Positions 49,804 to 64,000 of a DNA stretch of 64,000 bases are shown here, in pieces; position 1 is the stretch's first letter, and the number at the start of each line of letters is the position of its first letter. The notes below the pieces were generated by a model. The model did not search any database and was not told the DNA's origin. It saw only the letters and a list, made by a program, of their open reading frames with translations. This DNA comes from a virus: UHGV virus genome UHGV-0286546, one strand, 5' to 3'. A program made the translations under genes and the position numbers.

Positions 49804-49891
49804 AGAAATATTTAAGGTTCAAATAAGCGTGAATAAAAAGTGGGCATCTTGTTTATAATGAAAACCGAAGATTTTACAGAGGATAGAAAAG

Positions 49892-50210: not shown

Positions 50211-50235
50211 ACAGACAAGGAAATAATTAATTATT

Positions 50236-50508
50236 TTGCCAAGAATTACCGGAAAAGGTTTGAAGAAAAGAGCAACGAAAGCGGAGGTTGGAGTATTCAA
50301 AAGGAGAAATCAGATGTGGCAGAAGATTAAAAAAATTTTAAATTTATACAAAAATTGGTTTTTATCAATATTGAAAATTTTATTTTTGATTTGTTTATTA
50401 ATAATGAGTTTAACTGTAATAATATTATCAGCCCCTTTTATTATTTCAACAAAAGTTCAAACGGTTTTACAAAATATGTTTGATAAGATTATAAGGTTTA
50501 TGTGGTGA
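50236..50508 (+). CDS. small membrane protein (90 aa) containing internal MWQKIK module
   Basis: Hydrophobic C-terminal half; shares DNA repeat TGATGTGGCAGAAGATTAAA with next two MWQKIK genes. Confidence 0.45.
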   Translation: MPRITGKGLKKRATKAEVGVFKRRNQMWQKIKKILNLYKNWFLSILKILFLICLLIMSLTVIILSAPFIISTKVQTVLQNMFDKIIRFMW

Positions 50509-50699
50509 TGTGGCAGAAGATTAAATGCTGGCTAAAACAACTATTTTGCAAGCACGAATGGAAGTGTTTAAATTATGACTGCAAATATCGTAAACCGAAT
50601 TGGTGTGGTGACGAGGGTTTAATTCATGGATTACCGTTATGTTGGGCTTGTTATTCTCGTCATGTAGTTTGTAAACATTGTGGAAAGATAAAAAAATGA
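50502..50699 (+). CDS. Cys-rich MWQKIK-family small protein (65 aa)
   Basis: 9 Cys; ends CKHCGKIKK; GTG/ATG start. Confidence 0.5.
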   Translation: MVMWQKIKCWLKQLFCKHEWKCLNYDCKYRKPNWCGDEGLIHGLPLCWACYSRHVVCKHCGKIKK

Positions 50700-51112
50700 G
50701 TGTACAAGCTTGTAGAATAAGAGGATTTGGTTATAAATTTGATTATGAATATCCATTGTTCTCTTTTATAAAAGGTGAAGATGAAGAAGAAATATTAGAC
50801 AACGAATATGACTTCATTGATGTTTTGGGATTGAATTTTAGTTATTATGATATGCATAACACCCCATCTGATAAAAATAAACGCAAATTAATGATTATTA
50901 CAGATGGAATGAATGGAAACTATAAAGCCGTTATGTTTGTAACTCAAGTTATTGATATGTATGATACTCATGGATTTTATGAGCAGGGTTGGGTAAGAGA
51001 TTTTAGAAATGACGACTGGTTGCGAAAATGTGCGAAAAGAGATATTGAAACGTTATTACAGCGAAAATTTGATGAAGAACCTATTGAATTAGATTTAGAA
51101 TATTATAGTTAG
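50696..51112 (+). CDS. hypothetical protein (start at ATG overlapping upstream TGA)
   Basis: ATGA coupling; track TTG start less likely. Confidence 0.5.
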   Translation: MSVQACRIRGFGYKFDYEYPLFSFIKGEDEEEILDNEYDFIDVLGLNFSYYDMHNTPSDKNKRKLMIITDGMNGNYKAVMFVTQVIDMYDTHGFYEQGWVRDFRNDDWLRKCAKRDIETLLQRKFDEEPIELDLEYYS

Positions 51113-51121
51113 GAGATTGTG

Positions 51122-51394
51122 ATGTGGCAGAAGATTAAACGCTGGTTTACTAGACCGTTACTTAAACCTAGAACAGTGTTAGCTAGAGCTGATATAGGCG
51201 GAGAATGGTTTAGATTTAAAGTTCATAAAGGTAACCAAATTTACCTATATTGGTTTGGTTATATGTTTCCCCTCGAGTTGCAAGAAGATGGTTCAACTAT
51301 TTGTAAAAAAGAGGGGATAAGAGGATACAATAAACCATATTATTGGCATTGGATAGGAGATGACGGTAGAGATTGTCGTCAGGCAACGTTGTAA
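51122..51394 (+). CDS. MWQKIK-family small protein (paralog of 50502..50699 with replaced middle)
   Basis: Same 5' module; decayed copy of the CKHCGKIKK-encoding 3' module lies just past its stop (51380..51410). Confidence 0.5.
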   Translation: MWQKIKRWFTRPLLKPRTVLARADIGGEWFRFKVHKGNQIYLYWFGYMFPLELQEDGSTICKKEGIRGYNKPYYWHWIGDDGRDCRQATL

Positions 51395-51436
51395 ATATTG
51401 TGGAAAGATTAAGTAATTTTTATAAGGATAGAAATG

Positions 51437-51874
51437 ATGAGTAAATCAAAACCAGAAGTCGGTGATATATGGGAAATATCTGATCCAAACGCTGGAACTT
51501 ACCGAGCTCTTGTCATTAATACAACCAACTTTAAACATCCCTATTGTATTACAGATGACCTAGAAGGATGTTTTTTATGGGGCTATTCAACTGAAACATA
51601 TATTGGTAACTCTAAAGGTTCAATTTCGGCTTTATTTGAGGTAAAAAACGATAATATTATAAAAGTAGGACAGATTTACGAATTACCAGAAACAAAGGGT
51701 AGAGTTGTTGTTATTAGAGCTCCTGAAACAAAATCTCCATTAGATTGGGTGTATTTTATTTTTGATAATGGATATACCAAAAGATTATGGCAGAAAACAG
51801 TTAAAGAGCTTAAACTCATCACAGAATACCCCACTTGGCAGGAGGCCGTTAATTCAAAGGAGTTTAAAAAATAA
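51437..51874 (+). CDS. hypothetical protein (145 aa)
   Basis: ORF after AAGGATAGAAATG module. Confidence 0.5.
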   Translation: MSKSKPEVGDIWEISDPNAGTYRALVINTTNFKHPYCITDDLEGCFLWGYSTETYIGNSKGSISALFEVKNDNIIKVGQIYELPETKGRVVVIRAPETKSPLDWVYFIFDNGYTKRLWQKTVKELKLITEYPTWQEAVNSKEFKK

Positions 51875-51988
51875 TACAAATGGGGATGTGATAGTTTAGG
51901 CGTTTGAAATACTAGTTAGCCGATACGAAAGAGATTCCACCGGTGCGACTCTGGACATCCCCACTATTTTAACAAAGGAGTTTAAAAA

Positions 51989-52186
51989 ATGATTGATATT
52001 ATAAAAGCCTTCTGTGAAATGATAATAGATACTACTGTCATTACATTACTAGGTATCGTGTGTATTCTTCTATTTGTATGCGCCTTCTTATTTTTTCCAT
52101 TTAAAAGTATAAAAGCTTGGTTCGGTACACAAATATATAAAATCGCAGATACTATGGAATACTACTTAACAAAAACTGAATACTAA
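51989..52186 (+). CDS. small membrane protein (65 aa)
   Basis: Central hydrophobic helix; RBS AAAGGAG. Confidence 0.5.
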   Translation: MIDIIKAFCEMIIDTTVITLLGIVCILLFVCAFLFFPFKSIKAWFGTQIYKIADTMEYYLTKTEY

Positions 52187-52214
52187 AACATAACTACTAC
52201 TGAAAGATAAACAA

Positions 52215-52574
52215 ATGAACACTACTGATAAAACATACCTCAAATCAAGAACTAAAACTGAATATAAACTCCTATCCTATATAACAAAAACACTAAACCT
52301 TAACTCAAAAGACTTTAAAATTAAAAAAGCCAAACGTAAAGATAAACCCTCTATGCTAATGTCTTCCATGCCAATTATAACTAACGTCTACAAATTTCTA
52401 AAAAATAATTATAACCTACCAGAACTTACTATATCTACATCATATTATTCAGATACAAAAAAACTACTAAGAAGATCTCATACTGAATATAATGTCCTAC
52501 ACCTCAAAATAAACAATACAGTACAAGATCCTCAAGACATACTAACCCTACTCCGTATTAAAAACTCTATATAA
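52215..52574 (+). CDS. doubtful ORF (119 aa, K/T/L/N low complexity) inside G-depleted block
   Basis: Open frame may simply reflect absence of G (TAG/TGA impossible) over 52.19-52.92 kb. Confidence 0.25.
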   Translation: MNTTDKTYLKSRTKTEYKLLSYITKTLNLNSKDFKIKKAKRKDKPSMLMSSMPIITNVYKFLKNNYNLPELTISTSYYSDTKKLLRRSHTEYNVLHLKINNTVQDPQDILTLLRIKNSI

Positions 52575-52942
52575 CACACAATCTACCTATAGGGGCCATA
52601 CGTATATTACACAACCTACTACGTTAATAACTACGCTAATAGCTACACTAACTCCAACATGGCCCCTCTACATATCCCATAACCATACATACCACACAAC
52701 TTCACCTACAATACCTACAAGGGGCCTTACTTATACCTATACAACATAATACGGACCTACAACTATACTAGCCTATAAACTAACTTTACCTTTGGCCCCT
52801 CTACGAACTCTACGACTAATACTTCCCTTGCTACCTATGTACCCTGCCTTGCTACTTCTGCCTTTCTTTTATTTATCTTAACACTTCCAACGCTTCCCCT
52901 CCTACTGGATTTTATATTGAGCTTATTATTTATATACGTAAA

Positions 52943-52961
52943 GGCCCCATGGCGGGGGGCC
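52943..52961. repeat. GC-only palindromic hairpin GGCCCC-atggcgg-GGGGCC at junction of G-depleted block and AT-rich iterons
   Basis: 6-bp pure G/C stem in about 25% GC context. Confidence 0.6.
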
Positions 52962-53470
52962 CACCATGAGATAATTAAAATATTTTCAATGGTGAATTTT
53001 TTTTATTTCAATGGTGAAAAAAATTTATTATTATAAATATATAATAAATAATAAAAAAGCTTAATTAAAAAAATTTTAATATAAATATAAAAAATACAAG
53101 GTTAAAATTTTTATTTTCAAGGCTAAAATTATTTATTATAATAAATTATAATTTAAAATAAAATTTTACAAAAGCTTTTTATTTTATATAATATGCAAGT
53201 TTGTAAATTTATTTTAAGAAGTAAATTAAAAGCTAATTAAATATAAAGAGCTTCAAGGCTAACTTTTTTGTTTTCAAGGCTTAAAAAATATAATATAATA
53301 AAAAAATTTTAATTAAAATAATAAAAAGCTTCAAGGTTGAAATTTTTGTTTTCAAGGTTCAAATTATTTATTATTATAAAAATATAATAAATAAAAAATT
53401 ATAAAAGCTTTTTATTTTAATAATAATATGCAAGTTTATAAGTTTATTTATTAAATATAAAAAAAGAATC
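52962..53470. repeat. extreme AT-rich iteron region (direct repeats of ~45 bp AAAAGCTTTTTATTTTA..ATATGCAAGTTT(G/A)TAA(A/G)TTTATTT and TTTTCAAGG(C/T)T(A/T)AAA motifs x6)
   Basis: Repeats visible at 53165/53400 and 53113/53258/53283/53330/53347; >90% A+T. Confidence 0.6.
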
Positions 53471-53623
53471 TAATCGTAATTTGTAAATATATAATACAAT
53501 TACAATTAGCCCTAGGAGAACAGTTGTCTCAGAGCTGTTGTGATTATACTATATATTTCGTTTTGACAGAGATGATATATATAGATTTTGTAAATTAACC
53601 AACCACTATGAAAGGAAAAAGCT

Positions 53624-53959
53624 ATGACAAAGGCTAAAAAAACCATGACTGTTGAAGAAGTACGTAAAGCAAGAGAAGAAAACATCCCGGTAGTATTTAA
53701 TATGATAGCTGCACTGAAGGCCATAGAAGATACGCCTGCCAAGGTTGTTAAAAGCGGTGCTCTTGGTGATTTCAGTAAGGATATTATGGAATTGTTTAGG
53801 CAGGCCGGTACCCCCTTGGCATTAAATCAGGTAAGAGCGGCACTTATAGCAGGGGGTAAGGAAGTTACAGCGAAGCAGGTTGCTGATAGATGCTGGTTGC
53901 TTGCGAAGCGTGGTCAGTTGAAGAAGGGTACTGATAAAGGTGTATATGAGTTAGCTTAA
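53624..53959 (+). CDS. hypothetical basic helical protein (111 aa), first gene of higher-GC block
   Basis: ORF preceded by AACCAACC-N-GAAAGGAAA leader motif. Confidence 0.55.
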   Translation: MTKAKKTMTVEEVRKAREENIPVVFNMIAALKAIEDTPAKVVKSGALGDFSKDIMELFRQAGTPLALNQVRAALIAGGKEVTAKQVADRCWLLAKRGQLKKGTDKGVYELA

Positions 53960-54132
53960 GAGCGCCGCATGGTAATTGATATAAGGGGATGTCGTTAGTG
54001 ATGTCCCCTTTTGTTGTATATGAGTAGTATATATAAACGACGAAGATGAGTGAGCGTCGCTTATACATATTGCTTGATAGACAGAATTAAGTGATATGAA
54101 ACCCAACCGATATTAAATGAAAGGAAAATATT

Positions 54133-54327
54133 ATGAATAAAGTATTTAAGAACGTCGCTTATAATAGATCATTGAAGGTAGTGTCGTTAGGAAATGGCAA
54201 CTATGGTTTGTATGATCGTGAGTTTAAGTTTTGGGTAGCGCAAGGCAGCAAGACTGATATGTTAATGTTGTACAAAAAGATGACGGTTAATGCTTATTGT
54301 GATTCAAAGTTATTGATAGCACAGTGA
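54133..54327 (+). CDS. small hypothetical protein (64 aa)
   Basis: ORF preceded by ACCCAACC motif. Confidence 0.5.
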   Translation: MNKVFKNVAYNRSLKVVSLGNGNYGLYDREFKFWVAQGSKTDMLMLYKKMTVNAYCDSKLLIAQ

Positions 54328-54404
54328 CGTTGTAAGAGTAAGAGCGATGTTAGTAATTAGCGTCGCTCTTGTTTGTATTAACCTTTTATTAGGGAGTAAA
54401 CGAT

Positions 54405-54509
54405 ATGACAATATTAAAAAGTGTTGCTATCGCGTTGGTTGTAGTTAAACCAGGTAGTAAAAGTCAGCAAACGTTGTTAGTTGTTGATGAGAAAGTAAAA
54501 ACCTATTGA
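54405..54509 (+). CDS. very small hydrophobic peptide (34 aa)
   Basis: Strong RBS AGGGAG; MTILKSVAIALVVVKPG... Confidence 0.35.
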   Translation: MTILKSVAIALVVVKPGSKSQQTLLVVDEKVKTY

Positions 54510-54523
54510 TAAGGAACAAAGCA

Positions 54524-54661
54524 ATGAACGATATAAAGGTTGATAAAGATCCTATAGGTTATTTGTGGCGTGTATGGTTATGTAACGTTATCATATTTGT
54601 AACTGATACACAAGCTCGTGCTGAAGAATTTGCTAAACTTTATAGAGGAGCAACACAGTGA
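54524..54661 (+). CDS. small hypothetical protein (45 aa)
   Basis: RBS AAGGAAC; stop overlaps GTG start of next gene. Confidence 0.35.
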   Translation: MNDIKVDKDPIGYLWRVWLCNVIIFVTDTQARAEEFAKLYRGATQ

Positions 54662-54849
54662 GTAAAACCTTGAAAAACCTAGCGTATTTAATCCTAATGA
54701 TGAGTGCGCTTATTTTAATGACAATATGCTTGATGACGCCGGATAAAACGAACGATGGTTATTTTACGGATATTGTTCGTTATTGGACGGATAATCAGTA
54801 TTATTGTGATAATTTTAACCCTAACTACTGTAAAGGAATAAAACCATGA
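54658..54849 (+). CDS. small membrane protein (63 aa, GTG start)
   Basis: RBS AGAGGAG; hydrophobic N-terminus. Confidence 0.5.
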   Translation: MSKTLKNLAYLILMMSALILMTICLMTPDKTNDGYFTDIVRYWTDNQYYCDNFNPNYCKGIKP

Positions 54850-55085
54850 GTGAGTTTATTACAGTAAACACGCTGGAGTTAAAACCAATAGATCCTAATA
54901 CGTTGGGACTTACTTATAAACTCACTGCGTGTGTGGATGTCAATAAAAGGATGGTTGAGTCATTTCGAACAATCAAAGATCCTTTTAATAAGAAGGCATA
55001 CGTTTTATTAACAATGACTTCTGGTAAAGAGTATGTCATTACTGAAGAATCTGAAACCTTACTTAGAGAGGAGATTGAACAATGA
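54846..55085 (+). CDS. hypothetical protein (79 aa)
   Basis: ORF, 4-nt overlap. Confidence 0.5.
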   Translation: MSEFITVNTLELKPIDPNTLGLTYKLTACVDVNKRMVESFRTIKDPFNKKAYVLLTMTSGKEYVITEESETLLREEIEQ

Positions 55086-55294
55086 GTATCGTAAATAAAA
55101 CAGATAGAGATTGGAATTACACAATGCTTGTAAGTACAGTCGATACATTAAAATCTTCACAAGGATTTTATTCAAGATTAGCGGCAGAGCTTGCTGAAAT
55201 GTCTGAGGAAGAAAAAGAGCAGCTTAAAGAACAGTTAGCTAATCAACCTAAGTTTAACGACTCATTAGATGTTGTTATGTTTTTAGAAGGTTAA
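55082..55294 (+). CDS. hypothetical protein (70 aa)
   Basis: ORF, 4-nt overlap. Confidence 0.5.
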   Translation: MSIVNKTDRDWNYTMLVSTVDTLKSSQGFYSRLAAELAEMSEEEKEQLKEQLANQPKFNDSLDVVMFLEG

Positions 55295-55308
55295 CAAAGG
55301 AGGCTACC

Positions 55309-55722
55309 GTGACAATACCTTATGTAACAGGTGACCAACTTAAAAATGCTGCAGACTATCTTGCTTCTACTAAAGAACAAGGTGGATGTTATCATTGGAA
55401 AGTTTGCAGTAAAGACGACAAAGATATTTCTGTTGTCTTAGGTTGGACAGATGGTTTTGATAAAGATGATCCTGATAAAGATAAATATCAAGATGATACT
55501 TGGAGACTTGCTGTTAAAGTAGGTTATCAACCGTCAAATAGTATGATGCAATGTGATTATGATGTAGACTTTAATCTTCCATACTGGCCAGAAAATGGTG
55601 ATGTTTTGGATGAATGTGAACGCGTCATCTATGAAACCACTGACTTTGGAATACTTGCTAAGGATATAAATAGCAATGTAAATTGGGTAATCGAGCATTG
55701 GAAGGAGTTAGGACATGATTAA
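55309..55722 (+). CDS. hypothetical acidic protein (137 aa)
   Basis: ORF with RBS AAGGAGG. Confidence 0.55.
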   Translation: MTIPYVTGDQLKNAADYLASTKEQGGCYHWKVCSKDDKDISVVLGWTDGFDKDDPDKDKYQDDTWRLAVKVGYQPSNSMMQCDYDVDFNLPYWPENGDVLDECERVIYETTDFGILAKDINSNVNWVIEHWKELGHD

Positions 55723-56065
55723 AACACTGTGTGATGTGGAAATAATTATATCTGAAGACAATGAAGTCTCATATAATTATAAAGGAGTACTCTATACCAA
55801 AGAAAAATTTGAAGAGAGATTCCTTCCTAAGTCCAAAAAGTTTGCGTTAATCTATACAGACTATGGTGATACCTGTGATGGTTTAGCTAGAGTGTCTGGG
55901 GTATATGATACATTCAGAGAAGCGCAGATTGAAATGAACAAAGATGTTGAACACTTTAAAAAAGTAAACAGTCAATATCCTGACGAAGCTTCTGATGATA
56001 ACTACATTGTATTAGGTGATACATTTGATGGTTGTCAATGGCAAATCTTAGAAATGGAAGTATGA
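55715..56065 (+). CDS. hypothetical protein (116 aa)
   Basis: ORF. Confidence 0.5.
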   Translation: MIKTLCDVEIIISEDNEVSYNYKGVLYTKEKFEERFLPKSKKFALIYTDYGDTCDGLARVSGVYDTFREAQIEMNKDVEHFKKVNSQYPDEASDDNYIVLGDTFDGCQWQILEMEV

Positions 56066-56128
56066 AACAACTAAAAACTATGAATTATTATGTACTTTTA
56101 ACCTAACCACATTAAAGGAGAATAAATT

Positions 56129-56530
56129 ATGACTAATATGTGTAATGATGATGACCATGAATTTGTTGGCATGGACATGTGCATATATTGTGGTGAATGT
56201 AAACAATTGCTATTACAACCACATTTTTTCAAAGATGCAAATGGTGAAATGAAACCAAAAAGAGGTATTCGTAAATATCAATCAACGAGTCCTGAACCTT
56301 GTGACAAATGTAAAAAGAAGTTTGAAGAGGATGGAGTTGTACCTATGATTGAAGCAACTCGCGGTCATAAAGGTGAGCCTATCTTTGGTAAGAGATACAT
56401 CTTCATGAGAAGAGAAGCTATTCAGGGTCAAGAGTTTATTGACTTTATGAATAAACACGGATACTTAATCTGTGAACCTGAATTTATTGATACAGTGTTA
56501 GCTAAACATAAGGAACAAATGAATGTGTGA
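56129..56530 (+). CDS. Cys-rich zinc-finger-like protein (133 aa)
   Basis: CIYCGEC ... CDKCKKKF. Confidence 0.5.
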   Translation: MTNMCNDDDHEFVGMDMCIYCGECKQLLLQPHFFKDANGEMKPKRGIRKYQSTSPEPCDKCKKKFEEDGVVPMIEATRGHKGEPIFGKRYIFMRREAIQGQEFIDFMNKHGYLICEPEFIDTVLAKHKEQMNV

Positions 56531-56750
56531 TGACATTAAAAAGTTAGAGGAAGAACTCAAGCAAGCTGAATATGATGAAACAGATGCATATGGAACGTAT
56601 ATGTATTATGAATGTGCAGACCGAGGATATGATTATGCAGCTGCCTCAAAAGCGTGTGATGATTATCATAAAGCAAGTCAACGAGTGAAAGACCTCAAAG
56701 AAAAACTTGAAAGCCTACGTAAAAAGGTTAATGGTATTAAAAATGAATGA
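56523..56750 (+). CDS. hypothetical protein (75 aa)
   Basis: ORF. Confidence 0.5.
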   Translation: MCDDIKKLEEELKQAEYDETDAYGTYMYYECADRGYDYAAASKACDDYHKASQRVKDLKEKLESLRKKVNGIKNE

Positions 56751-56805
56751 TACCATGTAAAACATATTATTATGAATCTTCTACACTAACTGAAAGGAGT
56801 GTGAC

Positions 56806-57090
56806 ATGTCTAAGAAACTAAAAGAAGTCTTTACGGTTGATTTAAATACACAGGATGAAGATAATCAAGGTCGTCCTGTATATGTTGTATCGACCAGAAA
56901 AGAAGCTGAAAGGAGAGTGCGAATCCTTAATGAGCAAGAAGCTTGGGGAGTTGAACTTACTGAGGATAAGTTGGATATTAGTGATTGTGATGAGAATTAC
57001 AGAGTAATCAGTTGTGGTCGTCCTCATAGATTTTATAACGTAGGATCATTTGAAGTAGATGGTCCTTTTTATGAAGAAGAAAGTGAATGA
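56806..57090 (+). CDS. hypothetical protein (94 aa)
   Basis: ORF with RBS AAAGGAG. Confidence 0.5.
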   Translation: MSKKLKEVFTVDLNTQDEDNQGRPVYVVSTRKEAERRVRILNEQEAWGVELTEDKLDISDCDENYRVISCGRPHRFYNVGSFEVDGPFYEEESE

Positions 57091-57091
57091 T

Positions 57092-57331
57092 ATGAATAAA
57101 GATTCAAAGCAAACTTTATATATGGTTGCTTATTGGTTTTTCTGTGATGTAGAAAGTATGGTTATTGAAGCTTTCGAAACTCAAGAAGAAGCAGACAAAT
57201 TTGAAGAACTTGTCTGGGATAAATGCCAAGATGCACATATTGAATGTGATGTTGTTACTTATATTGGCACAACAAATCGATATAATGATGCTTTAAGTAA
57301 CCTCAATAAGTTACTAAATGAAGAAAAATGA
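57092..57331 (+). CDS. hypothetical protein (start ambiguous 57059/57074/57092)
   Basis: ORF. Confidence 0.45.
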   Translation: MNKDSKQTLYMVAYWFFCDVESMVIEAFETQEEADKFEELVWDKCQDAHIECDVVTYIGTTNRYNDALSNLNKLLNEEK

Positions 57332-57349
57332 TAATAAGGAGTAAAAAAC

Positions 57350-58009
57350 ATGGGAAATCGTGCAGTAATCACAGATGCTGAAAAGAAAATCGGTGTATAT
57401 CTTCATTGGAACGGTGGACGAGATACAATCGAACCGCTTTTGGCATACTGTAAATTAAAAGGATACAGGGATGTAGAGAATGATCCTAGTTATGCCTTTG
57501 CGAGATTAACACAGGTTATTGCTAACTTTTTTGGTGGTAGTAATTCCCTTGGTGTTGGACTTTTCAGTGAGCTTGATACTGATAACATGGACAATGGTAC
57601 ATATGTTATTGGTAAAGATTGGAAGATTGTTGACAGACTGTTCTTTAAAGGTTTCGAACAAGATCATTATAAATTCTTACCTATGCTGCGTGCACTTAAT
57701 GATAGTCAACCAAAAAAAGAACAACTTGATAATATAGAGTTAGTCAAGTATTGTTTACAGAACGGTATATCCTTAGAAGATGACTGTGATCGTGAACATG
57801 TTATTGATGCCAATGGATTTGATGAAACAGTTGGATACATTATTAAAGATCTTAATATAGAGATTGATGTCACTCGGATTAAAACAATGTATCAAACCGA
57901 GTCAGACAATTTCGAATTAGAATTAGTCAACGGTCTCAAATATCCTATTAGCTCTAATGACGCCAACCTAATCATGGCTAAAATTGCAACCCTTAACAAT
58001 CCGGAGTAA
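57350..58009 (+). CDS. hypothetical protein (219 aa)
   Basis: ORF with RBS AAGGAG. Confidence 0.55.
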   Translation: MGNRAVITDAEKKIGVYLHWNGGRDTIEPLLAYCKLKGYRDVENDPSYAFARLTQVIANFFGGSNSLGVGLFSELDTDNMDNGTYVIGKDWKIVDRLFFKGFEQDHYKFLPMLRALNDSQPKKEQLDNIELVKYCLQNGISLEDDCDREHVIDANGFDETVGYIIKDLNIEIDVTRIKTMYQTESDNFELELVNGLKYPISSNDANLIMAKIATLNNPE

Positions 58010-58013
58010 ATAA

Positions 58014-58211
58014 ATGGCAACACCTAAATCATTAAAACCTATTCCAGCAGATGAAGCACGAGCCTTGATTGAAAAACATCTTAAGGCAGGAACAGGTTTT
58101 TACGAATATCCTGATAATGTCGGTGATTTCGTATATCAAACAAAACGAGGAGTGTATCTAATCCGTGAAAACTTTGGAGGTAGATATGAAACCGGTAAAA
58201 TCAGCGACTAA
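58014..58211 (+). CDS. hypothetical protein (65 aa)
   Basis: ORF. Confidence 0.5.
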   Translation: MATPKSLKPIPADEARALIEKHLKAGTGFYEYPDNVGDFVYQTKRGVYLIRENFGGRYETGKISD

Positions 58212-58461
58212 TAATCTTTTGTTTGTAAACGTGAGAACCTATACACCAAATGTAAGGTTTGATACTGATGGTTTAAATGATGATGTGGAACTTGTAGAAG
58301 ATAACTGCATCAGATTAAACATTTTACAAATCTGTTATATCGAACCTTATAAACATCTAGGTTTCACATACTATAAATTGGTAATGACAAATGGACAATC
58401 CATAGTTACCGATAAGTTTTCATTTTCTTCTATTGATAAACTTATACAAGGAGGTGATTAA
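58186..58461 (+). CDS. hypothetical protein (start at ATG after GGAGG RBS)
   Basis: GGAGGTAGAT-ATG. Confidence 0.5.
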   Translation: MKPVKSATNNLLFVNVRTYTPNVRFDTDGLNDDVELVEDNCIRLNILQICYIEPYKHLGFTYYKLVMTNGQSIVTDKFSFSSIDKLIQGGD

Positions 58462-58462
58462 A

Positions 58463-58915
58463 ATGACAAATAGACAGTGGCAAACATGTGAAAAATGTGG
58501 AAAACAATATATCGATGAAGAATCTGATATATGTCCACAGTGTCAAGATGAATTGTATTGTGAGCTTAATAATCTTGAAGACGTAACACCAAAATCTGAA
58601 AATGTTACTTGGTCTGCATCGGGTGTTGTTATTGGTAAAGACTTCTATGGTAATGCGGGAAGTTATCCTGCTTTAAACTACGCGAGTTTTGATACTAAAG
58701 AACACCTGCTTGAAAAGATAAATACGGACTTTGCAGACAACTGTCTTGATGCAGGTTTTGGTTTTGACCGTCTACTTGCTGCTAGGATGCATGTATGTAT
58801 GAAGCATACCATAGTAATTGATGGTAAAGATTATACACATGAAGAATGGCAGAATGTGGATATTGGTGACACAAGTCTTATTGATAAACTAACCAAGGAG
58901 AACGGCAATGAATGA
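58463..58915 (+). CDS. zinc-ribbon protein (start at ATG after AAGGAGGTG RBS)
   Basis: CEKCGKQY...CPQCQ. Confidence 0.55.
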   Translation: MTNRQWQTCEKCGKQYIDEESDICPQCQDELYCELNNLEDVTPKSENVTWSASGVVIGKDFYGNAGSYPALNYASFDTKEHLLEKINTDFADNCLDAGFGFDRLLAARMHVCMKHTIVIDGKDYTHEEWQNVDIGDTSLIDKLTKENGNE

Positions 58916-59177
58916 AGATATAGAAGTCGGTGATATTATTTCAAAGATGTATGGTTACAATATGACCTTATATAAATTTTATCGTGTTGAACGTATAACT
59001 GGTCGGAGTATGTTCCTTCAAGAGATTGGTAAGACAATTGTAGATGGAGATTATATGACTCCGAAAGTTATACCTAATCCAAAAGAGTTAAAAGGAGGTG
59101 TAATTCGTAAGAGTTTAAATACTTATGTAGGTAATAAATGGGATGGTAAGCCTTTACAAGAAGATCGTTGGGATTAA
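58908..59177 (+). CDS. hypothetical protein (89 aa)
   Basis: ORF. Confidence 0.5.
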   Translation: MNEDIEVGDIISKMYGYNMTLYKFYRVERITGRSMFLQEIGKTIVDGDYMTPKVIPNPKELKGGVIRKSLNTYVGNKWDGKPLQEDRWD

Positions 59178-59264
59178 TTTTTGTAAAAATTTTTTCAATT
59201 TATTAACTATTTTTTAGTAATTTTATGATATGTATTAACCAACCACAACGAAAGGAAACAAAAA

Positions 59265-59627
59265 ATGTATGTACTTAATACTGTCACTACCGAAGAACAG
59301 TTTAAAGAATTGTATGATGCATCTGCTTATACGATAACTGGTGCTGGTGGTGATTTAAGTGAATGGATGAAAGGTATTAACGATGGATTGCAGCAACGTA
59401 AAATCGGCTCAGTCTCTCAGTTTTATACCTTTAAGGGTGCAGATATGAACAGAGTCTATAACTTAAAAGGTGATGTGATGTATCAAGATGATTTGACATT
59501 CCTCGCCTTTAAGTTAGATGGCTTGAATGTTGGTAAGTTGTCAATGCTCAAGTTAGAAATGGGTGACAGATGGTTTGACGATATTGTAGATAATAACCGT
59601 CACTTCAATAAACGTTTGTTGAACTAA
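59265..59627 (+). CDS. hypothetical protein (120 aa)
   Basis: Preceded by AACCAACC-N-GAAAGGAAA motif. Confidence 0.55.
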   Translation: MYVLNTVTTEEQFKELYDASAYTITGAGGDLSEWMKGINDGLQQRKIGSVSQFYTFKGADMNRVYNLKGDVMYQDDLTFLAFKLDGLNVGKLSMLKLEMGDRWFDDIVDNNRHFNKRLLN

Positions 59628-59637
59628 GGAGTGTGTG

Positions 59638-59832
59638 ATGACAGACAAACAACTGCGAAAACTGGCTAAAGAAGAATACCTTGATTGTCGTGAGTGTGGT
59701 CATTATCCTGAATTTATTACTGATTGCTGTGAGCTAAGTGATGAAGAAGAAAAAATGTATGCCTCTGAATATGATATGACTATCGAGGAATTCAGAAAGT
59801 ACAAAGCATATCTTGAAGAATTGTGTAACTAA
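59638..59832 (+). CDS. small Cys-containing protein
   Basis: RBS AAGGAGTG then ATG. Confidence 0.5.
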   Translation: MTDKQLRKLAKEEYLDCRECGHYPEFITDCCELSDEEEKMYASEYDMTIEEFRKYKAYLEELCN

Positions 59833-59893
59833 ATAAATAAGTATTATTATGTTTTTTTGTTTAAACCCAACCGTAGAATGAAAGGAAAGTACA

Positions 59894-60523
59894 ATGGGAA
59901 AATCAAGTCGTATACAAATTGAAGATGAAGTTTTTGATAGCTTAAAAGATGCTGCAGACTTCCTCGGTATTAATGATTATGATCTATCTGGTAAGCTGGA
60001 TGATTGTGAAGAAAAAGTCATTAAAGGTTTTAAAGTTAGAAGATTGGATCCAAGAGTATCTCGTTTGTGTGGTGCAATCTATTGTAATAAAACCGGTAAA
60101 TTGTACAAGAATGCAGTTATCCTCGGTAAGTGTTTGAAAGTAAATCCTACGTATATCTCTAATGAATTACGTAAGAACAACAAGTATGTTGACCGGTTTA
60201 ATAATACATATCGTCGGGTACAGAATCCTGAAAACTTCGATATGTCTAAAGCGATTGATACCATCGAGCCAGTTACTTTACATGCTGTATCATTGGTTGA
60301 AACGCAGAAACCGGTTGTACAGAATGAACCGTCTACATATATCGAACCTGCACCGGTAGCTAAGCCTGAGGTAAAAGAATCGGTTGTTGAAGATGATAGT
60401 GACATCCTAAATGATTTGGAAAAACTTACCGTAAGATTCTTGAATAAAAGAGATTACAGTACAGTTGAAGGTCTTCTGGATGTTATGAAAAAGATTACTT
60501 CTGAAAAAACAAATCTAGCTTGA
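59894..60523 (+). CDS. protein with two NUMOD1/IENR1-like HTH repeats (homing-endonuclease DNA-binding module without a nuclease domain)
   Basis: VFDSLKDAADFLGINDYDLSGKL and LYKNAVILGKCLKVNPTYISNEL resemble FxSxxEAAxxLGxxxSxI repeats; preceded by AACCCAACC motif. Confidence 0.45.
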   Translation: MGKSSRIQIEDEVFDSLKDAADFLGINDYDLSGKLDDCEEKVIKGFKVRRLDPRVSRLCGAIYCNKTGKLYKNAVILGKCLKVNPTYISNELRKNNKYVDRFNNTYRRVQNPENFDMSKAIDTIEPVTLHAVSLVETQKPVVQNEPSTYIEPAPVAKPEVKESVVEDDSDILNDLEKLTVRFLNKRDYSTVEGLLDVMKKITSEKTNLA

Positions 60524-60537
60524 GGGAGAATAGAAAC

Positions 60538-61026
60538 ATGACTGACCAAACTGTAAAGAAAATTAAACGGAAAGATGATTATACCTTAGAAGAATTGCGG
60601 GCATTAATCGCTGAAATGGATGAGAGTATAGGTCGTCAGCATGGAAAATCCGGTAAAATCTTTGAAGACGAAGAAAAAGAAAAGAACAGACTTTGGAATA
60701 ACTATTGTTCAAGAAAGTCTCGTGAGCGTAGAAGAAAAGTTGAGAAAGACCAGGAAAAATCATTCATGGAAGCTCATGGTTTAAGCGCTGACGAAGACGA
60801 GTACGGAATAAGACCTGTTGATGAAAGGAGATATATACGATGCTTCCACTCTGGTTACATTGATGCTCCAGTCTATCGTAAATACGTACAACGAATGACT
60901 GGCTTAAGTCTTAAACAAATCTGTATCCTACAAAAGCGTACAGGTTTAATTCCAGTTCCTGCTGTCGGTGATGCTGAAGCTGAGAAAGACTGGAAAGAAA
61001 GATATGAGCGTGGCGATATTTATTAA
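60538..61026 (+). CDS. hypothetical basic protein (start at ATG after AGGGAGA)
   Basis: ORF. Confidence 0.5.
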   Translation: MTDQTVKKIKRKDDYTLEELRALIAEMDESIGRQHGKSGKIFEDEEKEKNRLWNNYCSRKSRERRRKVEKDQEKSFMEAHGLSADEDEYGIRPVDERRYIRCFHSGYIDAPVYRKYVQRMTGLSLKQICILQKRTGLIPVPAVGDAEAEKDWKERYERGDIY

Positions 61027-61365
61027 TGGTAAAAAAATAATTTTCCACGGCAACTAAAATGTGATATATATAATATTGTTTTATGAGCTAAACAATATTT
61101 AAATAACAATCGGAATTGGTCCGGTTGTATAACTGAAAGGCACTAAAATATAAAACGTAATTAAGGTTCAAGGCGACTATGATAATTCTACAGAGTAATC
61201 CTTTTTATGATATTCACTAACAACTAGTACACGATTACTTTGTATATCACGCTCGGCTGGTAAAATGTAAGTTGCGTTAAGATTTACAAACCTACAGAGT
61301 TTTCCCTTTTTCCTTGTGGTTGGGGAAAGAATCCTGGACATGATTATAAACTGTCTTTCTGTCGC

Positions 61366-61420
61366 GAAGAGGTATTTAATTATTGAGTACATTGTAGTTA
61401 GATACCTCTTCTTTTTATTC
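61366..61420 (+). terminator. 10-bp perfect hairpin GAAGAGGTAT...ATACCTCTTC + TTTTTATTC, ending an ORF-poor 435-bp spacer
   Basis: Inverted repeat + T run. Confidence 0.5.
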
Positions 61421-61461
61421 AACCCTATACTGTAAATGTATAACATCTAAGGAGATCAATT

Positions 61462-61779
61462 ATGACAAAACAGATTAAAACGTTAACTGACAAACAGATT
61501 GAAGAGTTGGTTAAAGCTTACGTAGAATATAAAAACGCTGAACAGAAATTTAAAGACCTTAAAGAAAAATATACCAAAGACTTGGTCGAAGGTAAATTTT
61601 CAGCTGAAGGCATTGGTGAAGTTATTAAAACCAAGTTTGTAAGGTCTTCCCTCAATTCCACAAGATTATCAGAAGAACACCCTGAAATCAACCTTGATGA
61701 ATATAAAGATTCCACTGAATCAACAAGTGTAACCATTAAAAATAAAATGGTTAACAATAAAGTTCTTGGTATATTCTAA
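61462..61779 (+). CDS. hypothetical protein (105 aa)
   Basis: RBS AAGGAG. Confidence 0.55.
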   Translation: MTKQIKTLTDKQIEELVKAYVEYKNAEQKFKDLKEKYTKDLVEGKFSAEGIGEVIKTKFVRSSLNSTRLSEEHPEINLDEYKDSTESTSVTIKNKMVNNKVLGIF

Positions 61780-61790
61780 AGGAGAATGCC

Positions 61791-62810
61791 ATGAAGACAA
61801 TTGAAGAATGGTTTCAAGGTTTAACTGAGACCCAACAAGACTACATCAAAAGAACTGCTAACGGTTTTGATGTAAATGTTCCGGGTTATTTCGAATTCGA
61901 TAAAGACTTAGATGCAGATAAAATACTTAGTTTTATTGCGCGAGGTCGTTTAGATAGTGCAGGATCTACAAATACGGAACGTAAAGAAGCCAATTTGTTT
62001 CTAGTCTATAGTCTGAATAAATGTAACAAAGAGTTACTATCTGATGATATGTTCATAACTTACCTAGATAATACATATTATGATGCTTCTTACGTACGTA
62101 AATACCTATCTAAAGAAATTTATCTGAAATTTCTCGAAAGTAAATATAGCAGATATGGTGAAGGAATATATGACTTAGACCAATTGCTTATTAGTACTGA
62201 AGACTTTGATAATATCAATTGGAATAAACTCAAAAATTCTTCTGGTTTCTGTAACGAAGAACTGTTTGGTATCATGGGTAAAGAAAAAGCTAAGGAATGG
62301 TTAAAAGAACATCCTGCAGCTTTTGATATTTATCGTGATGAGGAACGTCCACTTATTGATGAACTCTTTGATGAGTTATTCTTTGGTGAAGATGGATGGT
62401 GTGAATCAGATAAAATGGTAGTAGTTAGAAGGTATGCTGCACATCAATATCGTTTTGATGATCTGTTAAAGCGAATTGTTTGTGTAGATAAAAAGTATTA
62501 CAAGTATATCTATCCATTCATTGAAAATCGCACAGCTATGGCAAATGAAATCTATACAGCAAAGAAATCGGAGGAAGAGCTAACCGGTAATGAAACGGTA
62601 GAACAAGTTTATAGATATTCGAAAGAAATACGTAAGCTTGCTCAAATCGCTGCATGCTGTGTCAGAGGAAATATCAGTAAAGCAATGACAGGTACACTTG
62701 CTGAAGTCGCAGGACTTATGAAGATATACCAATATGACTTCGATAAGATCTTTGCGTGTATGTATCCTGAAACAATTGAAGATGATGAGGAGGAATACCA
62801 GGAAGCTTAA
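61791..62810 (+). CDS. hypothetical protein (339 aa)
   Basis: RBS AAGGAG. Confidence 0.55.
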   Translation: MKTIEEWFQGLTETQQDYIKRTANGFDVNVPGYFEFDKDLDADKILSFIARGRLDSAGSTNTERKEANLFLVYSLNKCNKELLSDDMFITYLDNTYYDASYVRKYLSKEIYLKFLESKYSRYGEGIYDLDQLLISTEDFDNINWNKLKNSSGFCNEELFGIMGKEKAKEWLKEHPAAFDIYRDEERPLIDELFDELFFGEDGWCESDKMVVVRRYAAHQYRFDDLLKRIVCVDKKYYKYIYPFIENRTAMANEIYTAKKSEEELTGNETVEQVYRYSKEIRKLAQIAACCVRGNISKAMTGTLAEVAGLMKIYQYDFDKIFACMYPETIEDDEEEYQEA

Positions 62811-62975
62811 GTAACTGATTTGGTTTAATTTTCAGGTAGTGAAACATGTATTTATTGAAGTAACTACCTTTTTTAATTACCATGTTAAAAAAATATATTT
62901 TCATGGTGAATCAATTGTAGTATATAAACAAACGTATTTTATAATATAACCCAACCAAAATTAGGAGAAAATGTT

Positions 62976-64000
62976 ATGGTTAAGAATGTACAAGATAAAT
63001 TGCTGATGCCGGAATTCACGATTGATACAGTTGTTAATGATAGTGGTATCGAAATTCCTGGTATCAAAAGAATGTATGATATTGCATTGGCTATTGGTGA
63101 TTCATTGATGCAGTGGGGTGGTCCAGGATGTGGTAAGTCTCAGTCAGTACAGCAGTGGAATGCAGATAAAGTTGCTGAGTATGAAAAACGTATGGCTGAA
63201 GGTGAAAAAGTAAAACCTTGGAATCCGGTCGTTTGTGATGTTCGTTTGTCTATGAAAGAGCCAGTTGATATGGTTGGTGTTCCTATTCCGACTAAAGATG
63301 AAAAAGGTAACATGACAACTGTTTGGGCAACTCCTTCGATGTGGCCTAAGAATGATGGTGAATTCGCTGGTGGTGTTATTCACTTGGATGAAATGAATCA
63401 GGGTCAAGCTGCTATTCTGAATGCTGCCTTCCAGTTGATTCAAGACCGTGCTTTGGGAGAATACAAAGTACCTGAAGGTTATATCATTATTGGTTCATCT
63501 AACCCGTCTGCATATAACTCTACTGTTACTGAGTTTTCTGTACCATTGTCAAACAGATTTAGTCACTTCAATGTTAAACCTGACTTCGATTCTTGGTTGA
63601 ACTACAGAATGAATAACGGTGGTAACTTGGATGTTATGACCTTCTTAAAGACACAGGGTATGAATATGTTGTTTGATAAAGAAGGTATGGAAGCCAAAGT
63701 TGGTAGTCTTGCCGATGCTATGTATACAGATATTGTTATCACTCCTCGCTCTTGGGAAGTAATTGAAAAAGTATTAGCGCTTCCTGATGGTAATAAAGCA
63801 ACTGGTGGATTTACAATAGATGAAAAACAAAGATATGCAACCGGTCGTTTAGGTCTTGCTATTGCTTCCAGACTGTTTACTTGGTTGAAAGATAAAGCTA
63901 AATATCAAGACTGGAGAGAAATCCTTATCGATGGTAAAGACTTTAAAGATGAAAACAGTGAACAATTCTGGGCTGTTCAGATGGCATGTATGAATGCAAT
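62976..64000 (+). CDS. AAA+ ATPase, AAA_5/MoxR-CobS-like (3'-truncated at window end; not in supplied track)
   Basis: Walker A GGPGCGKS, Walker B VIHLDEMNQ, sensor ...SSNPSAY...NRFSHF; preceded by AACCCAACC motif and AGGAG RBS. Confidence 0.7.
   Translation, partial: MVKNVQDKLLMPEFTIDTVVNDSGIEIPGIKRMYDIALAIGDSLMQWGGPGCGKSQSVQQWNADKVAEYEKRMAEGEKVKPWNPVVCDVRLSMKEPVDMVGVPIPTKDEKGNMTTVWATPSMWPKNDGEFAGGVIHLDEMNQGQAAILNAAFQLIQDRALGEYKVPEGYIIIGSSNPSAYNSTVTEFSVPLSNRFSHFNVKPDFDSWLNYRMNNGGNLDVMTFLKTQGMNMLFDKEGMEAKVGSLADAMYTDIVITPRSWEVIEKVLALPDGNKATGGFTIDEKQRYATGRLGLAIASRLFTWLKDKAKYQDWREILIDGKDFKDENSEQFWAVQMACMNA

What the first reader, a model, noticed from the sequence alone, without database searches (positions are those of the whole stretch)
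53561..64000. Compositional discontinuity: higher-GC gene block after 53.6 kb with a conserved upstream motif AACCCAACC-N~15-GAAAGGAAA
ORFs after 53.6 kb have visibly higher GC (about 38-42%) than the rest (about 28-30%). Five genes (starts 53624, 54133, 59265, 59894, 62976) carry (A)ACCCAACC 27-32 nt upstream of the ATG, usually followed by GAAAGGAAA. The motif is not found elsewhere in the window. This suggests a regulon with its own promoter/leader element (for example a phage-specific sigma or middle/late promoter) and possibly a horizontally acquired module.
Basis: seen in the sequence. Interest (0 to 1): 0.55.

Follow-up and report, generated by a model that had tools for sequence, protein, structure and literature searches.

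The report
Shared leader motif of phage early-gene cassettes
An uncultured ~243-kb human-gut phage puts the same short A/C-rich sequence just ahead of the ribosome-binding site of many small genes in one variable region; this is a real class-specific regulatory tag that also serves as a recombination point, and it is a new variant of things already known in large phages.

Summary
The motif is real. Each sits 5-10 nt upstream of a Shine-Dalgarno site and 27-32 nt before an ATG. It precedes 6 of 10 operon-first genes in the block against 0 of 32 elsewhere. At least four more copies lie in the 9 kb beyond the window. Variants (ACCTAACCA, TCTAACCACA) are kept in relatives. GAAAGGAAA is only this phage's usual ribosome-binding site.

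The GC shift is real but overstated: 35% against 29%, not 38-42%. Relatives share the gene order and the GC rise, so recent horizontal acquisition is not supported.

The motif lies downstream of -10-like hexamers. It can abut the ribosome-binding site or sit inside an upstream ORF, and it is predicted unpaired. I therefore read it as a transcribed C/A-rich 5' leader element of pre-late genes, not a promoter for a phage sigma factor.

One strain lacks 5.76 kb exactly between two motif cassettes, with a hybrid leader at the junction. The closest analogues are T4 PeSL cassettes and C/A-rich translational enhancers. No transcription start sites were mapped and the host is unknown.

The parts
53597..53605 (+). 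Leader motif site 1, AACCAACCA, 27 nt before the ATG at 53624
   Evidence: invariant in 7 strain variants
54101..54109 (+). Leader motif site 2, ACCCAACCG, 32 nt before the ATG at 54133; left partner of the 5.76-kb strain deletion
56101..56109 (+).
   Evidence: identical variant in relative L001 at 6745 upstream of the orthologous gene
56784..56791 (+). Degenerate motif CACTAACT directly before the Shine-Dalgarno site GAAAGGAG of the ATG at 56806; ATTATTATG lies upstream
59237..59245 (+). Leader motif site 4, AACCAACCA, 28 nt before the ATG at 59265
59865..59873 (+). Leader motif site 5, ACCCAACCG, 29 nt before the ATG at 59894; right partner of the strain deletion
62949..62957 (+). Leader motif site 6, ACCCAACCA, 27 nt before the ATG at 62976 (MoxR-like ATPase)
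   Evidence: orthologous positions in L001, L004 and L006 carry AACCTTAACCA or ATCTAACCA
53610..53618 (+). Shine-Dalgarno site GAAAGGAAA of gene 53624. The same 9-mer is at 54119-54127, 59250-59258 and 59880-59888; AAAGGAG is at 56114-56120 and AGGAG at 62963-62967
   Evidence: the 9-mer also precedes starts at 27609, 30530 and 37138 outside the block; xAAAGGA is the dominant Shine-Dalgarno context genome-wide
53624..53959 (+). First gene of the block, 111 aa, monocistronic, the highest GC of any block gene (43.5%); its C-terminal half is predicted to be a winged helix
   Evidence: orthologues in L001, L002, L004 and L005; found in 57 blocks of the metagenome collection
53983..54010 (+). Intrinsic terminator after gene 53624 (12-bp stem followed by a T-run)
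54340..54378 (+). Terminator-like hairpin (AAGAGCGA...TCGCTCTT) with a T-rich tail, after gene 54133
   Evidence: read from the sequence; not flagged by the scan
62834..62874 (+). Terminator hairpin AGGTAGT...ACTACCT followed by TTTTT, between gene 61791-62810 and the promoter/leader of the ATPase
   Evidence: read from the sequence
54128..59888 (+). 5.76-kb segment (17-19 small ORFs) that is absent from strain L131/L135. The junction is a hybrid of leader sites 2 and 5
53624..64000 (+). Unidirectional block of about 25 mostly small ORFan genes with raised GC/GC3. It is hyperplastic among strains and continues about 9 kb past the window end
52190..53596 (.). Conserved non-coding control region that forms the left border of the block. 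It holds a G-depleted C-rich tract, a GC-rich palindrome with an ACGTAAAGGCC core (52937-52962), and AT-rich repeats with promoter-like TTTTCA-17-TATAAT units (52960-53450)

Best explanation
The window comes from an uncultured, roughly 243-kb, 30%-GC myovirus that is common in human-gut metagenomes. Positions 53.6 kb to about 73 kb form a unidirectional, strain-variable ('hyperplastic') region of small pre-late (early or middle) genes. It starts right after a conserved 1.4-kb non-coding control region.

Its transcription units share a leader cassette with four parts, in this order:
1. An optional hairpin or terminator.
2. A weak sigma70-like -10, often with an upstream TG or ATTATTATG.
3. The G-free motif A(A/C)C(N)AACC(A/G), at or within about the first 15 nt of the transcript.
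4. The ribosome-binding site GAAAGGA, 0-12 nt further on.

I infer that the motif works in the RNA. It would be a single-stranded C/A-rich element immediately 5' of the ribosome-binding site. It would boost or gate translation initiation, or mRNA survival, of this gene class, in the manner of C/A-rich/ACA enhancers. It may also be the handle for a class-specific regulator.

Each genome has its own homogenised variant (CCAACC here, CCTAACC in L001, TCTAACC in L004/L006, CAACAAC in L007). I attribute this to recombination between cassettes. That recombination is directly visible as a 5.76-kb deletion whose junction is a hybrid of two cassettes.

The raised GC/GC3 is a conserved property of this expression class, with lower use of the A-ending codons read by the phage's own tRNAs. 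It is not a sign of recent acquisition.

Shown: the motif's existence, position, specificity and conservation; the deletion; the synteny; the composition.
Inferred: that the motif is transcribed, that it acts at the RNA level, the temporal class of the genes, and concerted evolution.
For: - Statistics.
- Position relative to the Shine-Dalgarno site and ATG.
- -10-like hexamers lie 0-15 nt upstream of the motif. Full TTTACA-17-TATTTT/TATTTA promoters lie 5-8 nt upstream in L004 and L006.
- In the same genome, beyond the window, ACCCAACCA abuts AAGGAG with 0 nt spacing. AACCAACCA-gat-GAAAGGAAA lies inside the 3' end of the upstream ORF. Spacing is 0-3 nt at L001 16999 and at L002 11291 and 13320. 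A start site downstream of the motif would cut off the ribosome-binding site.
- The motif is predicted mostly unpaired (0.48-0.99), with no common structure.
- Leaders in the block are C-enriched: 0.19 against 0.10, p = 0.011.
- Clade-wide conservation with genome-specific variants.
- The hybrid leader at the deletion junction reads ...ACCCAACCGatattaaatGAAAGGAAAgtacaATG.
- Further gene-sized insertions and deletions occur among 8 strains.
- Synteny, the GC rise in relatives and codon use against phage tRNAs (47% against 57%, p = 2e-14).
- Published precedent: ACA/C-A-rich elements just upstream of the Shine-Dalgarno site enhance translation without strict spacing (PMC3879156).
Against: - No transcription start site, RNA or protein data exist, and the host is unknown.
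- A generic 'unstructured C/A-rich' role does not by itself explain why a specific 8-9-mer is kept.
- Only 2 of the 6 window sites contain ACA.
- At two sites in the extension past the window end, and at several relatives' sites, a stable hairpin with a poor U-tract sits directly upstream. No sigma70-like promoter is visible there. That is equally compatible with the motif being the only promoter signal at those sites.
- At some sites (53597, 59237, 62949) a -10-like hexamer abuts the motif. The start site could then fall inside it, making it a discriminator or initial-transcribed element rather than a leader element.
- Only about 90 kb of the roughly 243-kb genome could be inspected.
Confidence: 0.5

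Rival explanations
1. The motif is a DNA-level promoter element (-10-like, discriminator or initiator) for a phage-modified host RNA polymerase, a phage sigma factor or a phage RNA polymerase. It would define a middle-type temporal class.
For: - Strict class specificity next to two other upstream motif classes.
- It occurs at the head of transcription units, after terminators.
- Hairpin-adjacent sites have no recognisable sigma70 promoter.
- -35 elements are poor or mis-spaced at the six window sites.
- -10-like hexamers directly abut the motif at 53597, 59237 and 62949.
- One short metagenome contig, L146, begins 2 nt upstream of the motif, although AT-rich repeats upstream could explain that assembly break.
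Against: - The motif is C-rich rather than AT-rich.
- Its distance to the ribosome-binding site ranges from 0 to 12 nt. At 0-3 nt spacing, a start site downstream of the motif would delete or truncate the ribosome-binding site.
- Complete sigma70-type -35/-10 pairs lie upstream of it in L004 and L006.
- The spacing between the conserved ATTATTATG/-10 and the motif varies from 4 to 15 nt, and even between strains through T-run length.
Confidence: 0.25
2. The repeat has no sequence-specific function of its own. It is a legacy of duplication or gene conversion of promoter-leader cassettes in a recombination-prone region. It persists because it travels with the ribosome-binding site and promoter and seeds further recombination.
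For: - Sites fall into near-identical pairs: AAACCCAACCG at 54100 and 59864, and ATTAACCAACCAC at 53594 and 59234.
- A deletion junction lies within two cassettes.
- Many other insertions and deletions use 5-13-nt microhomologies at gene borders.
- Each genome has its own variant.
Against: - The AAC-C core and its place immediately 5' of the ribosome-binding site are kept across relatives whose neighbouring proteins are only 30-60% identical, while the surrounding intergenic sequence is not alignable.
- Copies occur inside coding sequence exactly in register with the next gene's ribosome-binding site.
- The crossover in the deletion lies in the shared AATGAAAGGAAA, not in the AACC motif itself.
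Confidence: 0.12
3. The higher-GC block is a horizontally acquired module that brought its own regulatory signals with it.
For: A significant GC, GC1 and GC3 shift that begins sharply at a long non-coding border. Most genes are ORFans.
Against: - The block is syntenic in 7 IMG/VR relatives and in MAG-borne relatives.
- Four of the seven IMG/VR relatives clearly show the same GC rise.
- The shift is only about 6 points.
- The same ribosome-binding site form is used inside and outside the block.
- No integrase or transposase was found among the ten largest block proteins scanned.
Confidence: 0.07

Closest known systems
PeSL cassettes (promoter-early stem-loop) of T4-type phages (Arbiol et al. 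2010, PMC2839356; Comeau et al. 2014, PMC4122927)
   Same: - Short repeated intergenic regulatory cassettes concentrated in hyperplastic regions.
- They flank small ORFan early genes and combine a stem-loop or terminator with a promoter.
- Recombination between copies creates gene-sized insertions and deletions between closely related phages. Here that is the 5.76-kb deletion with a chimeric cassette and many other indels.
   Different: - In PeSLs the conserved parts are a consensus sigma70 promoter with an AT-rich upstream element and a G/C-tract stem-loop. Here the conserved part is a C/A-rich 9-mer downstream of the -10 plus the ribosome-binding site.
- The -35 is poor, and hairpins are neither conserved in sequence nor always present.
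- The phage is only remotely T4-like: its tail sheath is about 25% identical.
C/A-rich and ACA translational enhancers upstream of the Shine-Dalgarno site in enterobacterial mRNAs (yifK, dppA, gltI), which are targets of the sRNA GcvB (PMC3879156)
   Same: A G-free, single-stranded C/A-rich element lies immediately 5' of the ribosome-binding site. Its spacing to that site is flexible, and it is shared by a set of co-regulated mRNAs.
   Different: - Those elements are defined functionally and by ACA triplets. Only 2 of the 6 window sites contain ACA.
- The core here is AACC-N-AACC.
- No G/U-rich antisense partner was found: the motif's complement is not enriched in the neighbouring non-coding region.
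- Enhancer activity was not tested.
Class-specific control of T4 early mRNAs by RegA (translational repressor) and RegB (endoribonuclease that cuts GGAG in early ribosome-binding sites). From my own knowledge; not tested here.
   Same: Idea only: a short sequence in the translation-initiation region, shared by many early mRNAs, lets one phage factor control the whole class after transcription.
   Different: RegA and RegB sites overlap the ribosome-binding site or the AUG and have different sequences. No RegA or RegB homologue was detected among the proteins scanned.
T4-type temporal promoter classes: early sigma70, middle MotA box, late TATAAATA. From my own knowledge.
   Same: This phage also shows at least three upstream motif classes segregated by gene module: GTTTTACA-17-TAnnnT, AGTTCTAA ahead of structural genes, and the AACC leader.
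   Different: The AACC motif lies downstream of the -10 region. It is neither at -30 like a MotA box nor AT-rich like a late -10.

Membership tests
PeSL-type mobile regulatory cassette | Repeated intergenic cassettes concentrated in a hyperplastic region, flanking small ORFan genes | tested here: met
   Six to seven copies in 10 kb, and at least four more in the next 9 kb. The genes are ORFans. The region varies among 8 strains.
PeSL-type mobile regulatory cassette | The conserved core is a consensus sigma70 early promoter with an AT-rich upstream region | tested here: not met
   The consensus promoter scan shows no enrichment (43 found against 55.7 expected). -10-like hexamers are present, but the -35 is poor or mis-spaced. 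The conserved part lies downstream of the -10.
PeSL-type mobile regulatory cassette | An adjacent stem-loop that acts as a terminator or attenuator | tested here: inconclusive
   Terminators or hairpins precede the sites at 54101 and 62949 and two sites beyond the window. The others have none, and termination was not tested.
PeSL-type mobile regulatory cassette | Recombination between cassettes generates insertions and deletions with chimeric cassettes | tested here: met
   The L131/L135 junction is a hybrid of the cassettes at 54101 and 59865.
C/A-rich (ACA) translational enhancer | G-poor, C/A-rich, single-stranded sequence immediately 5' of the Shine-Dalgarno site | tested here: met
   The motif contains no G or T apart from the last base. 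Spacing is 0-12 nt. Unpaired probability is 0.48-0.99. Leader C content is 0.19 against 0.10.
C/A-rich (ACA) translational enhancer | ACA trinucleotides carry the activity | tested here: inconclusive
   ACA is present at 56101 and 59237 and in most relatives' CCACA variants. It is absent at 53597, 54101, 59865 and 62949.
C/A-rich (ACA) translational enhancer | Raises translation initiation; mutation lowers expression | not testable with these tools
   Needs reporter or toeprint assays.
Phage-specific promoter (phage sigma, RNA polymerase or activator) | The element lies upstream of the start site at a fixed distance, so the ribosome-binding site stays in the transcript | tested here: not met
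   At several sites the motif lies 0-3 nt from the Shine-Dalgarno site. Spacing to that site is variable. The start sites themselves are unmapped.
Phage-specific promoter (phage sigma, RNA polymerase or activator) | The genome encodes a cognate transcription factor or polymerase | not tested
The first gene encodes a winged-helix protein of unknown role.
Horizontally acquired genomic island | Absent from, or non-syntenic in, close relatives | tested here: not met
   Orthologues lie in the same order in L001-L007.
Horizontally acquired genomic island | A compositional deviation that is specific to this genome | tested here: not met
   The deviation exists, but L001, L004, L005 and L006 show the same regional GC rise.

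The most novel reading that the evidence does not exclude
The AACC-N-AACC leader is the recognition site of a dedicated trans-acting factor. Candidates are a phage-encoded RNA-binding protein (for example the winged-helix product of the first gene) or a nuclease. The factor would switch a whole regulon of more than 10 pre-late transcription units on or off after transcription. This would be a RegA/RegB-like class switch with an unrelated sequence code, in a widespread uncultured gut jumbo-phage clade. Cassette recombination would keep the code uniform within each genome.
Probability: 0.15. Interest if true: 0.6.

Novelty: new variant of a known kind. Interest (0 to 1): 0.35.

Why it matters
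- It gives a usable regulatory map for an uncultured but common human-gut jumbo phage. There are three motif classes that separate gene modules, and one of them marks the variable 'host-takeover-like' region.
- It extends cassette-mediated modular shuffling, known from T4-type coliphages, to a distant clade. Here the shared sequence is a 5' leader plus ribosome-binding site rather than a promoter plus stem-loop.
- The leader is a compact candidate translational enhancer or operator that could be tested directly.
- It is not a surprise to specialists. Class-specific upstream motifs and hyperplastic early regions are expected in large phages.

Tried and rejected
1. A pattern scan of IMG/VR with AACCNAACCR-N3-12-GAAAGGA gave only single chance matches in unrelated contigs, so it was uninformative.
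2. I tested whether the G-depleted tract at 52190-52930 is a decoy or antisense partner carrying many motif copies. The motif is not enriched there in the window or in L002; only L005 has its own CTAAC repeat. Rejected.
3. No near DNA match exists in cultured phages. The closest cultured ATPase and tail-sheath homologues are at most 27% identical, so no annotated model phage is available.
4. Rfam found only tRNAs; there is no known RNA family in the leaders or the control region.
5. Attempts to fetch other genome parts of the relatives' contigs, via the tail sheath and the DUF2828/DUF7788 protein (window 35047-36531), returned other contigs. Relatives' GC could therefore be compared only within 21-kb loci.
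6. I looked for a common RNA structure in the leaders and found none. An SD-sequestering CUUUC/GAAAG stem with the motif in the loop appears only at the L004/L006 post-ATPase sites.
7. A motif search found no bS21-like protein in the accessible sequence.
8. Host inference from MAG titles is contradictory: Succinivibrionaceae, Lachnospiraceae and 'Bacilli'. The Shine-Dalgarno context xAAAGGA fits a 16S 3' end of ...CCUCCUUUCU, but this is weak.
9. I considered and dropped pairing of CCAACC with 16S GGUUGG (wrong polarity relative to the anti-Shine-Dalgarno sequence) and a BoxA-like reading. Both were resemblances from memory only.
10. Two exact-protein look-ups for upstream window genes failed.

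Full report
WHAT THE WINDOW IS

The window is part of a large myovirus with about 30% GC.
- It has a tail sheath at 9383-11344(-), helicases at 21.5-24.6 kb and 20 tRNA genes.
- Cultured phages give no near DNA match. The best protein identities are about 25-27%.
- Exact-protein look-ups show the phage is common in human-gut assemblies. The 111-aa product of 53624-53959 is listed in 57 blocks of the collection.
- Several contigs are 243 kb long. ENA ERZ1689821 NODE_5 (243,127 bp) is 100% identical to window 43624-59931.
- Relatives whose ATPase is 72-84% identical occur in IMG/VR contigs of up to 231 kb, and in MAG contigs of 245-249 kb.

CHECKING THE OBSERVATION

Motif.
- Exact ACCCAACC occurs 5 times against 0.46 expected.
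Two are on the - strand, in the tRNA-Tyr acceptor stem and in a coding region.
- The pattern A[AC]C[ACT]AACC adds ACCTAACCA at 56101. A degenerate CACTAACT lies at 56784.
- All copies are on the + strand, 5-10 nt upstream of a Shine-Dalgarno site and 27-32 nt upstream of an ATG.
- Among operon-first genes, the motif is present in 6 of 10 in the block and 0 of 32 elsewhere (p = 4e-5).

GAAAGGAAA. This 9-mer also precedes start codons at 27609, 30530 and 37138. xAAAGGA is the dominant Shine-Dalgarno context genome-wide. It is the ribosome-binding site, not part of a special motif.

GC.
- Gene GC is 0.350 against 0.292 (p = 7e-10). GC3 is 0.276 against 0.195.
- The shift is therefore about 6 points, not 10. 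Only the first gene reaches 43.5%.

THE BLOCK AND ITS BORDER

The border.
- The block follows a 1.4-kb non-coding region at 52190-53596.
- That region contains a G-depleted C-rich tract, a GC-rich palindrome and AT-rich repeats with promoter-like units.
- The same architecture, including the ACGTAAAGGCC core, precedes the orthologue of gene 53624 in L001, L002 and L005.

The block.
- It consists of small ORFan genes on one strand. It ends, within the window, in a MoxR-like ATPase.
- A DUF2201/VWA protein follows beyond the window.
- In the same genome, the 9 kb past the window end carry further motif copies:
  - CAACCACA after a hairpin.
  - ACCCAACCA abutting AAGGAG.
  - AACCAACCA-gat-GAAAGGAAA inside the upstream ORF.
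  - ACCAACCACA-gt-AAGGAG.
- GC stays near 0.35 for about 3 kb past the window end and then falls.

OTHER UPSTREAM MOTIF CLASSES
- Structural genes carry aAGTTCTAa 30-62 nt before the ATG. This is conserved in a relative with a 49%-identical sheath and in another strain.
- Genes at 27-47 kb carry GTTTTAC(A/T)-17-TAnnnT.
- The AACC motif occurs with neither. It is one of at least three class signals.

CONSERVATION
- L001 has ACCTAACCA four times plus AACCTTAACCA. L004 and L006 have (A/T)TCTAACCAC(A). L144 has AACCAACC, ACCTAACC, TTCTAACC and others. L146 has AACCTAACCAC and CCAACCAACCACA.
- L002 and L005 have GTCTAACTACA or TCTAACCA. L007 has looser A/C-rich leaders (CACCAACAACA).
- All of these lie immediately 5' of the ribosome-binding site.
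- Neighbouring proteins are often only 30-60% identical, and flanking intergenic DNA is not alignable. The AAC-C core is therefore under selection. Each genome's own consensus suggests homogenisation between copies; that is my inference.
- Among 7 strains the cassettes are almost invariant.

DNA SIGNAL OR RNA SIGNAL?

Evidence that the motif is transcribed:
- -10-like hexamers (TATAAT, TATGAT, TATTAT, TAGATT), often with TG or ATTATTATG, lie 0-15 nt upstream.
- In L004 and L006, complete TTTACA-17-TATTTT/TATTTA promoters end 5-8 nt before the motif. That places the motif at about +1 to +10.
- The motif-to-ribosome-binding-site spacing ranges from 0 to 12 nt. At 0-3 nt, a start site downstream of the motif would remove the ribosome-binding site.
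- Two copies lie inside upstream ORFs, in register with the next ribosome-binding site.
- The motif is C-rich and predicted unpaired.

Evidence that keeps the promoter reading alive:
- -35 elements are poor.
- Some sites follow stable 11-15-bp hairpins with poor U-tracts and no visible promoter.
- At three sites the -10-like hexamer abuts the motif.

No start site is mapped. I give the RNA-leader reading 0.5 and the promoter-element reading 0.25.

RECOMBINATION
- Strain L131/L135 matches window 46030-54127 at 100% and 59863-64000 at 99.9%.
- Its junction reads gtgatatgaaACCCAACCGatattaaatGAAAGGAAAgtacaATG. This is the upstream part of the 54101 cassette fused to the downstream part of the 59865 cassette, joined within the shared AATGAAAGGAAA.
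- The missing 5.76 kb holds 17-19 genes. Many of them have orthologues in relatives, so this is a deletion.
- Seven further gene-sized insertions and deletions among strains use 5-13-nt microhomologies at gene borders.
- This mirrors PeSL-mediated shuffling in T4-type phages (PMC2839356, PMC4122927). Here, however, the shared sequence is the leader plus the ribosome-binding site.

COMPOSITION
- The block is syntenic in all relatives.
- L001, L004, L005 and L006 show the same 3-8-point GC rise over it. Recent horizontal transfer is therefore not supported.
- The block uses fewer of the A-ending codons read by the phage's own U34 tRNAs: 47% against 57%, p = 2e-14. TTA is 31% of Leu codons against 61%.
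- This is consistent with expression before the phage tRNAs matter. That is an inference, and it is not independent of the GC3 shift itself.

VERDICT
- The feature is a class-specific C/A-rich leader cassette of a hyperplastic pre-late region. It is a new variant of known kinds (PeSL-like cassettes and C/A-rich translational enhancers).
- Interest is moderate.

Noticed in passing
window 4473(+), 9274(-), 11396(-), 15079(-), 16631(-), 16677(-), 17833(-), 21462(-), 38876(+), 40310(+), 43161(+); L128; L141: A second upstream motif, aAGTTCTAa/t, lies 30-62 nt before the ATG of structural genes and some other genes. It is conserved in a distant relative (tail sheath 49% identical) and in another strain. 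It is probably the late promoter of this clade.
   Followed up: partly
window 34983, 39399, 39547, 41714, 43994, 46375 (+), 46014 (-), about 27580 (+): A third class, G(G/T)TTTAC(A/T)-17-TAnnnT, consists of near-consensus sigma70-type promoters. They lie ahead of the tRNA, replication and small-ORF regions, and none lies on the + strand of the block.
   Followed up: partly
window 52190-53596; L001 290-1560; L002 2640-3780; L005 3130-4250: A conserved non-coding control region lies upstream of the block. It has a G-depleted C-rich tract (G about 7%). ORF 52215-52574 lies inside that tract and has no ribosome-binding site. A GC-rich palindrome, tACGTAAAGGCCCCatggcgGGGGGCC at 52937-52962, has a core ACGTAAAGGCC that recurs in three relatives. 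AT-rich 78-235-nt repeats contain TTCAAGGYT and TTTTCA-17-TATAAT. Its function is unknown; candidates are an origin, a packaging site, an early promoter array, a non-coding RNA or a Rho loading site.
   Followed up: partly
window 47164-52000 and 53624-64000, compared with L133-L140: Strains that are 93-100% identical differ by many gene-sized insertions, deletions and replacements, for example 54422>55516, 54851>55078, 57092>57327, 58218>58430, 58467>58591 and 59627>59821. The junctions show 5-13-nt microhomology at gene starts and ends.
   Followed up: yes
window 53624-53959: This is the first gene after the control region, with its own terminator and the highest GC of any block gene. The AlphaFold2 model has a C-terminal half with pLDDT 83-90 that forms a winged helix. 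The best Foldseek matches are Zalpha/ZBP1, the Fur DNA-binding domain and the Rpa2 winged helix, with TM-scores (normalised to target length) of 0.8-0.9 for the Zalpha/ZBP1 and Rpa2 single-domain targets (about 0.4-0.7 for the larger Fur proteins) but weak E-values of 4e-3 to 5e-2. It may be an early nucleic-acid-binding regulator.
   Followed up: partly
L142-L145 (GTDB genome contigs): The phage or close relatives are deposited inside MAGs labelled Succinivibrionaceae (ATPase 100% identical), Lachnospiraceae and 'Bacilli bacterium'. The 'Bacilli' entries are single 245-249-kb contigs that look like whole phage genomes. These are likely binning artefacts, and the host is unresolved.
   Followed up: no
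window 61430-61461; L001 about 7960; L004 about 8320 and 8730: A conserved (T)CTAAATGTATAA element lies upstream of gene 61462 and its orthologues. It is distinct from the AACC leader and partly resembles the TTCTAA core of the late motif.
   Followed up: no
L001 10603-10680, L002 11231-11290, L003 3507-3579, L004 11240-11324, L005 11231-11285, L006 11201-11272, L007 6534-6605, L131 12419-12499: The intergenic site after the ATPase gene always holds a perfect 11-15-bp hairpin. Its sequence differs in every genome (z-scores -4.6 to -5.4 in 5 of 7) and its U-tract is mostly poor. The leader motif follows it. It may be a terminator or attenuator, or a processing or stability element.
   Followed up: partly
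window 34563-34751 and 38043-38600: Two unusually long tRNA-like genes were called: Ser-ACT at 88 nt and Ile-TAT at 94 nt. An HNH endonuclease gene is embedded in the tRNA cluster.
   Followed up: no
L146 1-45 (Logan ERR10745233 contig, 1138 nt): A short contig from a relative (first-gene protein 65% identical) begins 2 nt upstream of AACCTAACCAC. This could reflect a transcript 5' end if the run is RNA, or an assembly break at the AT-rich repeats. The run type is unknown.
   Followed up: no
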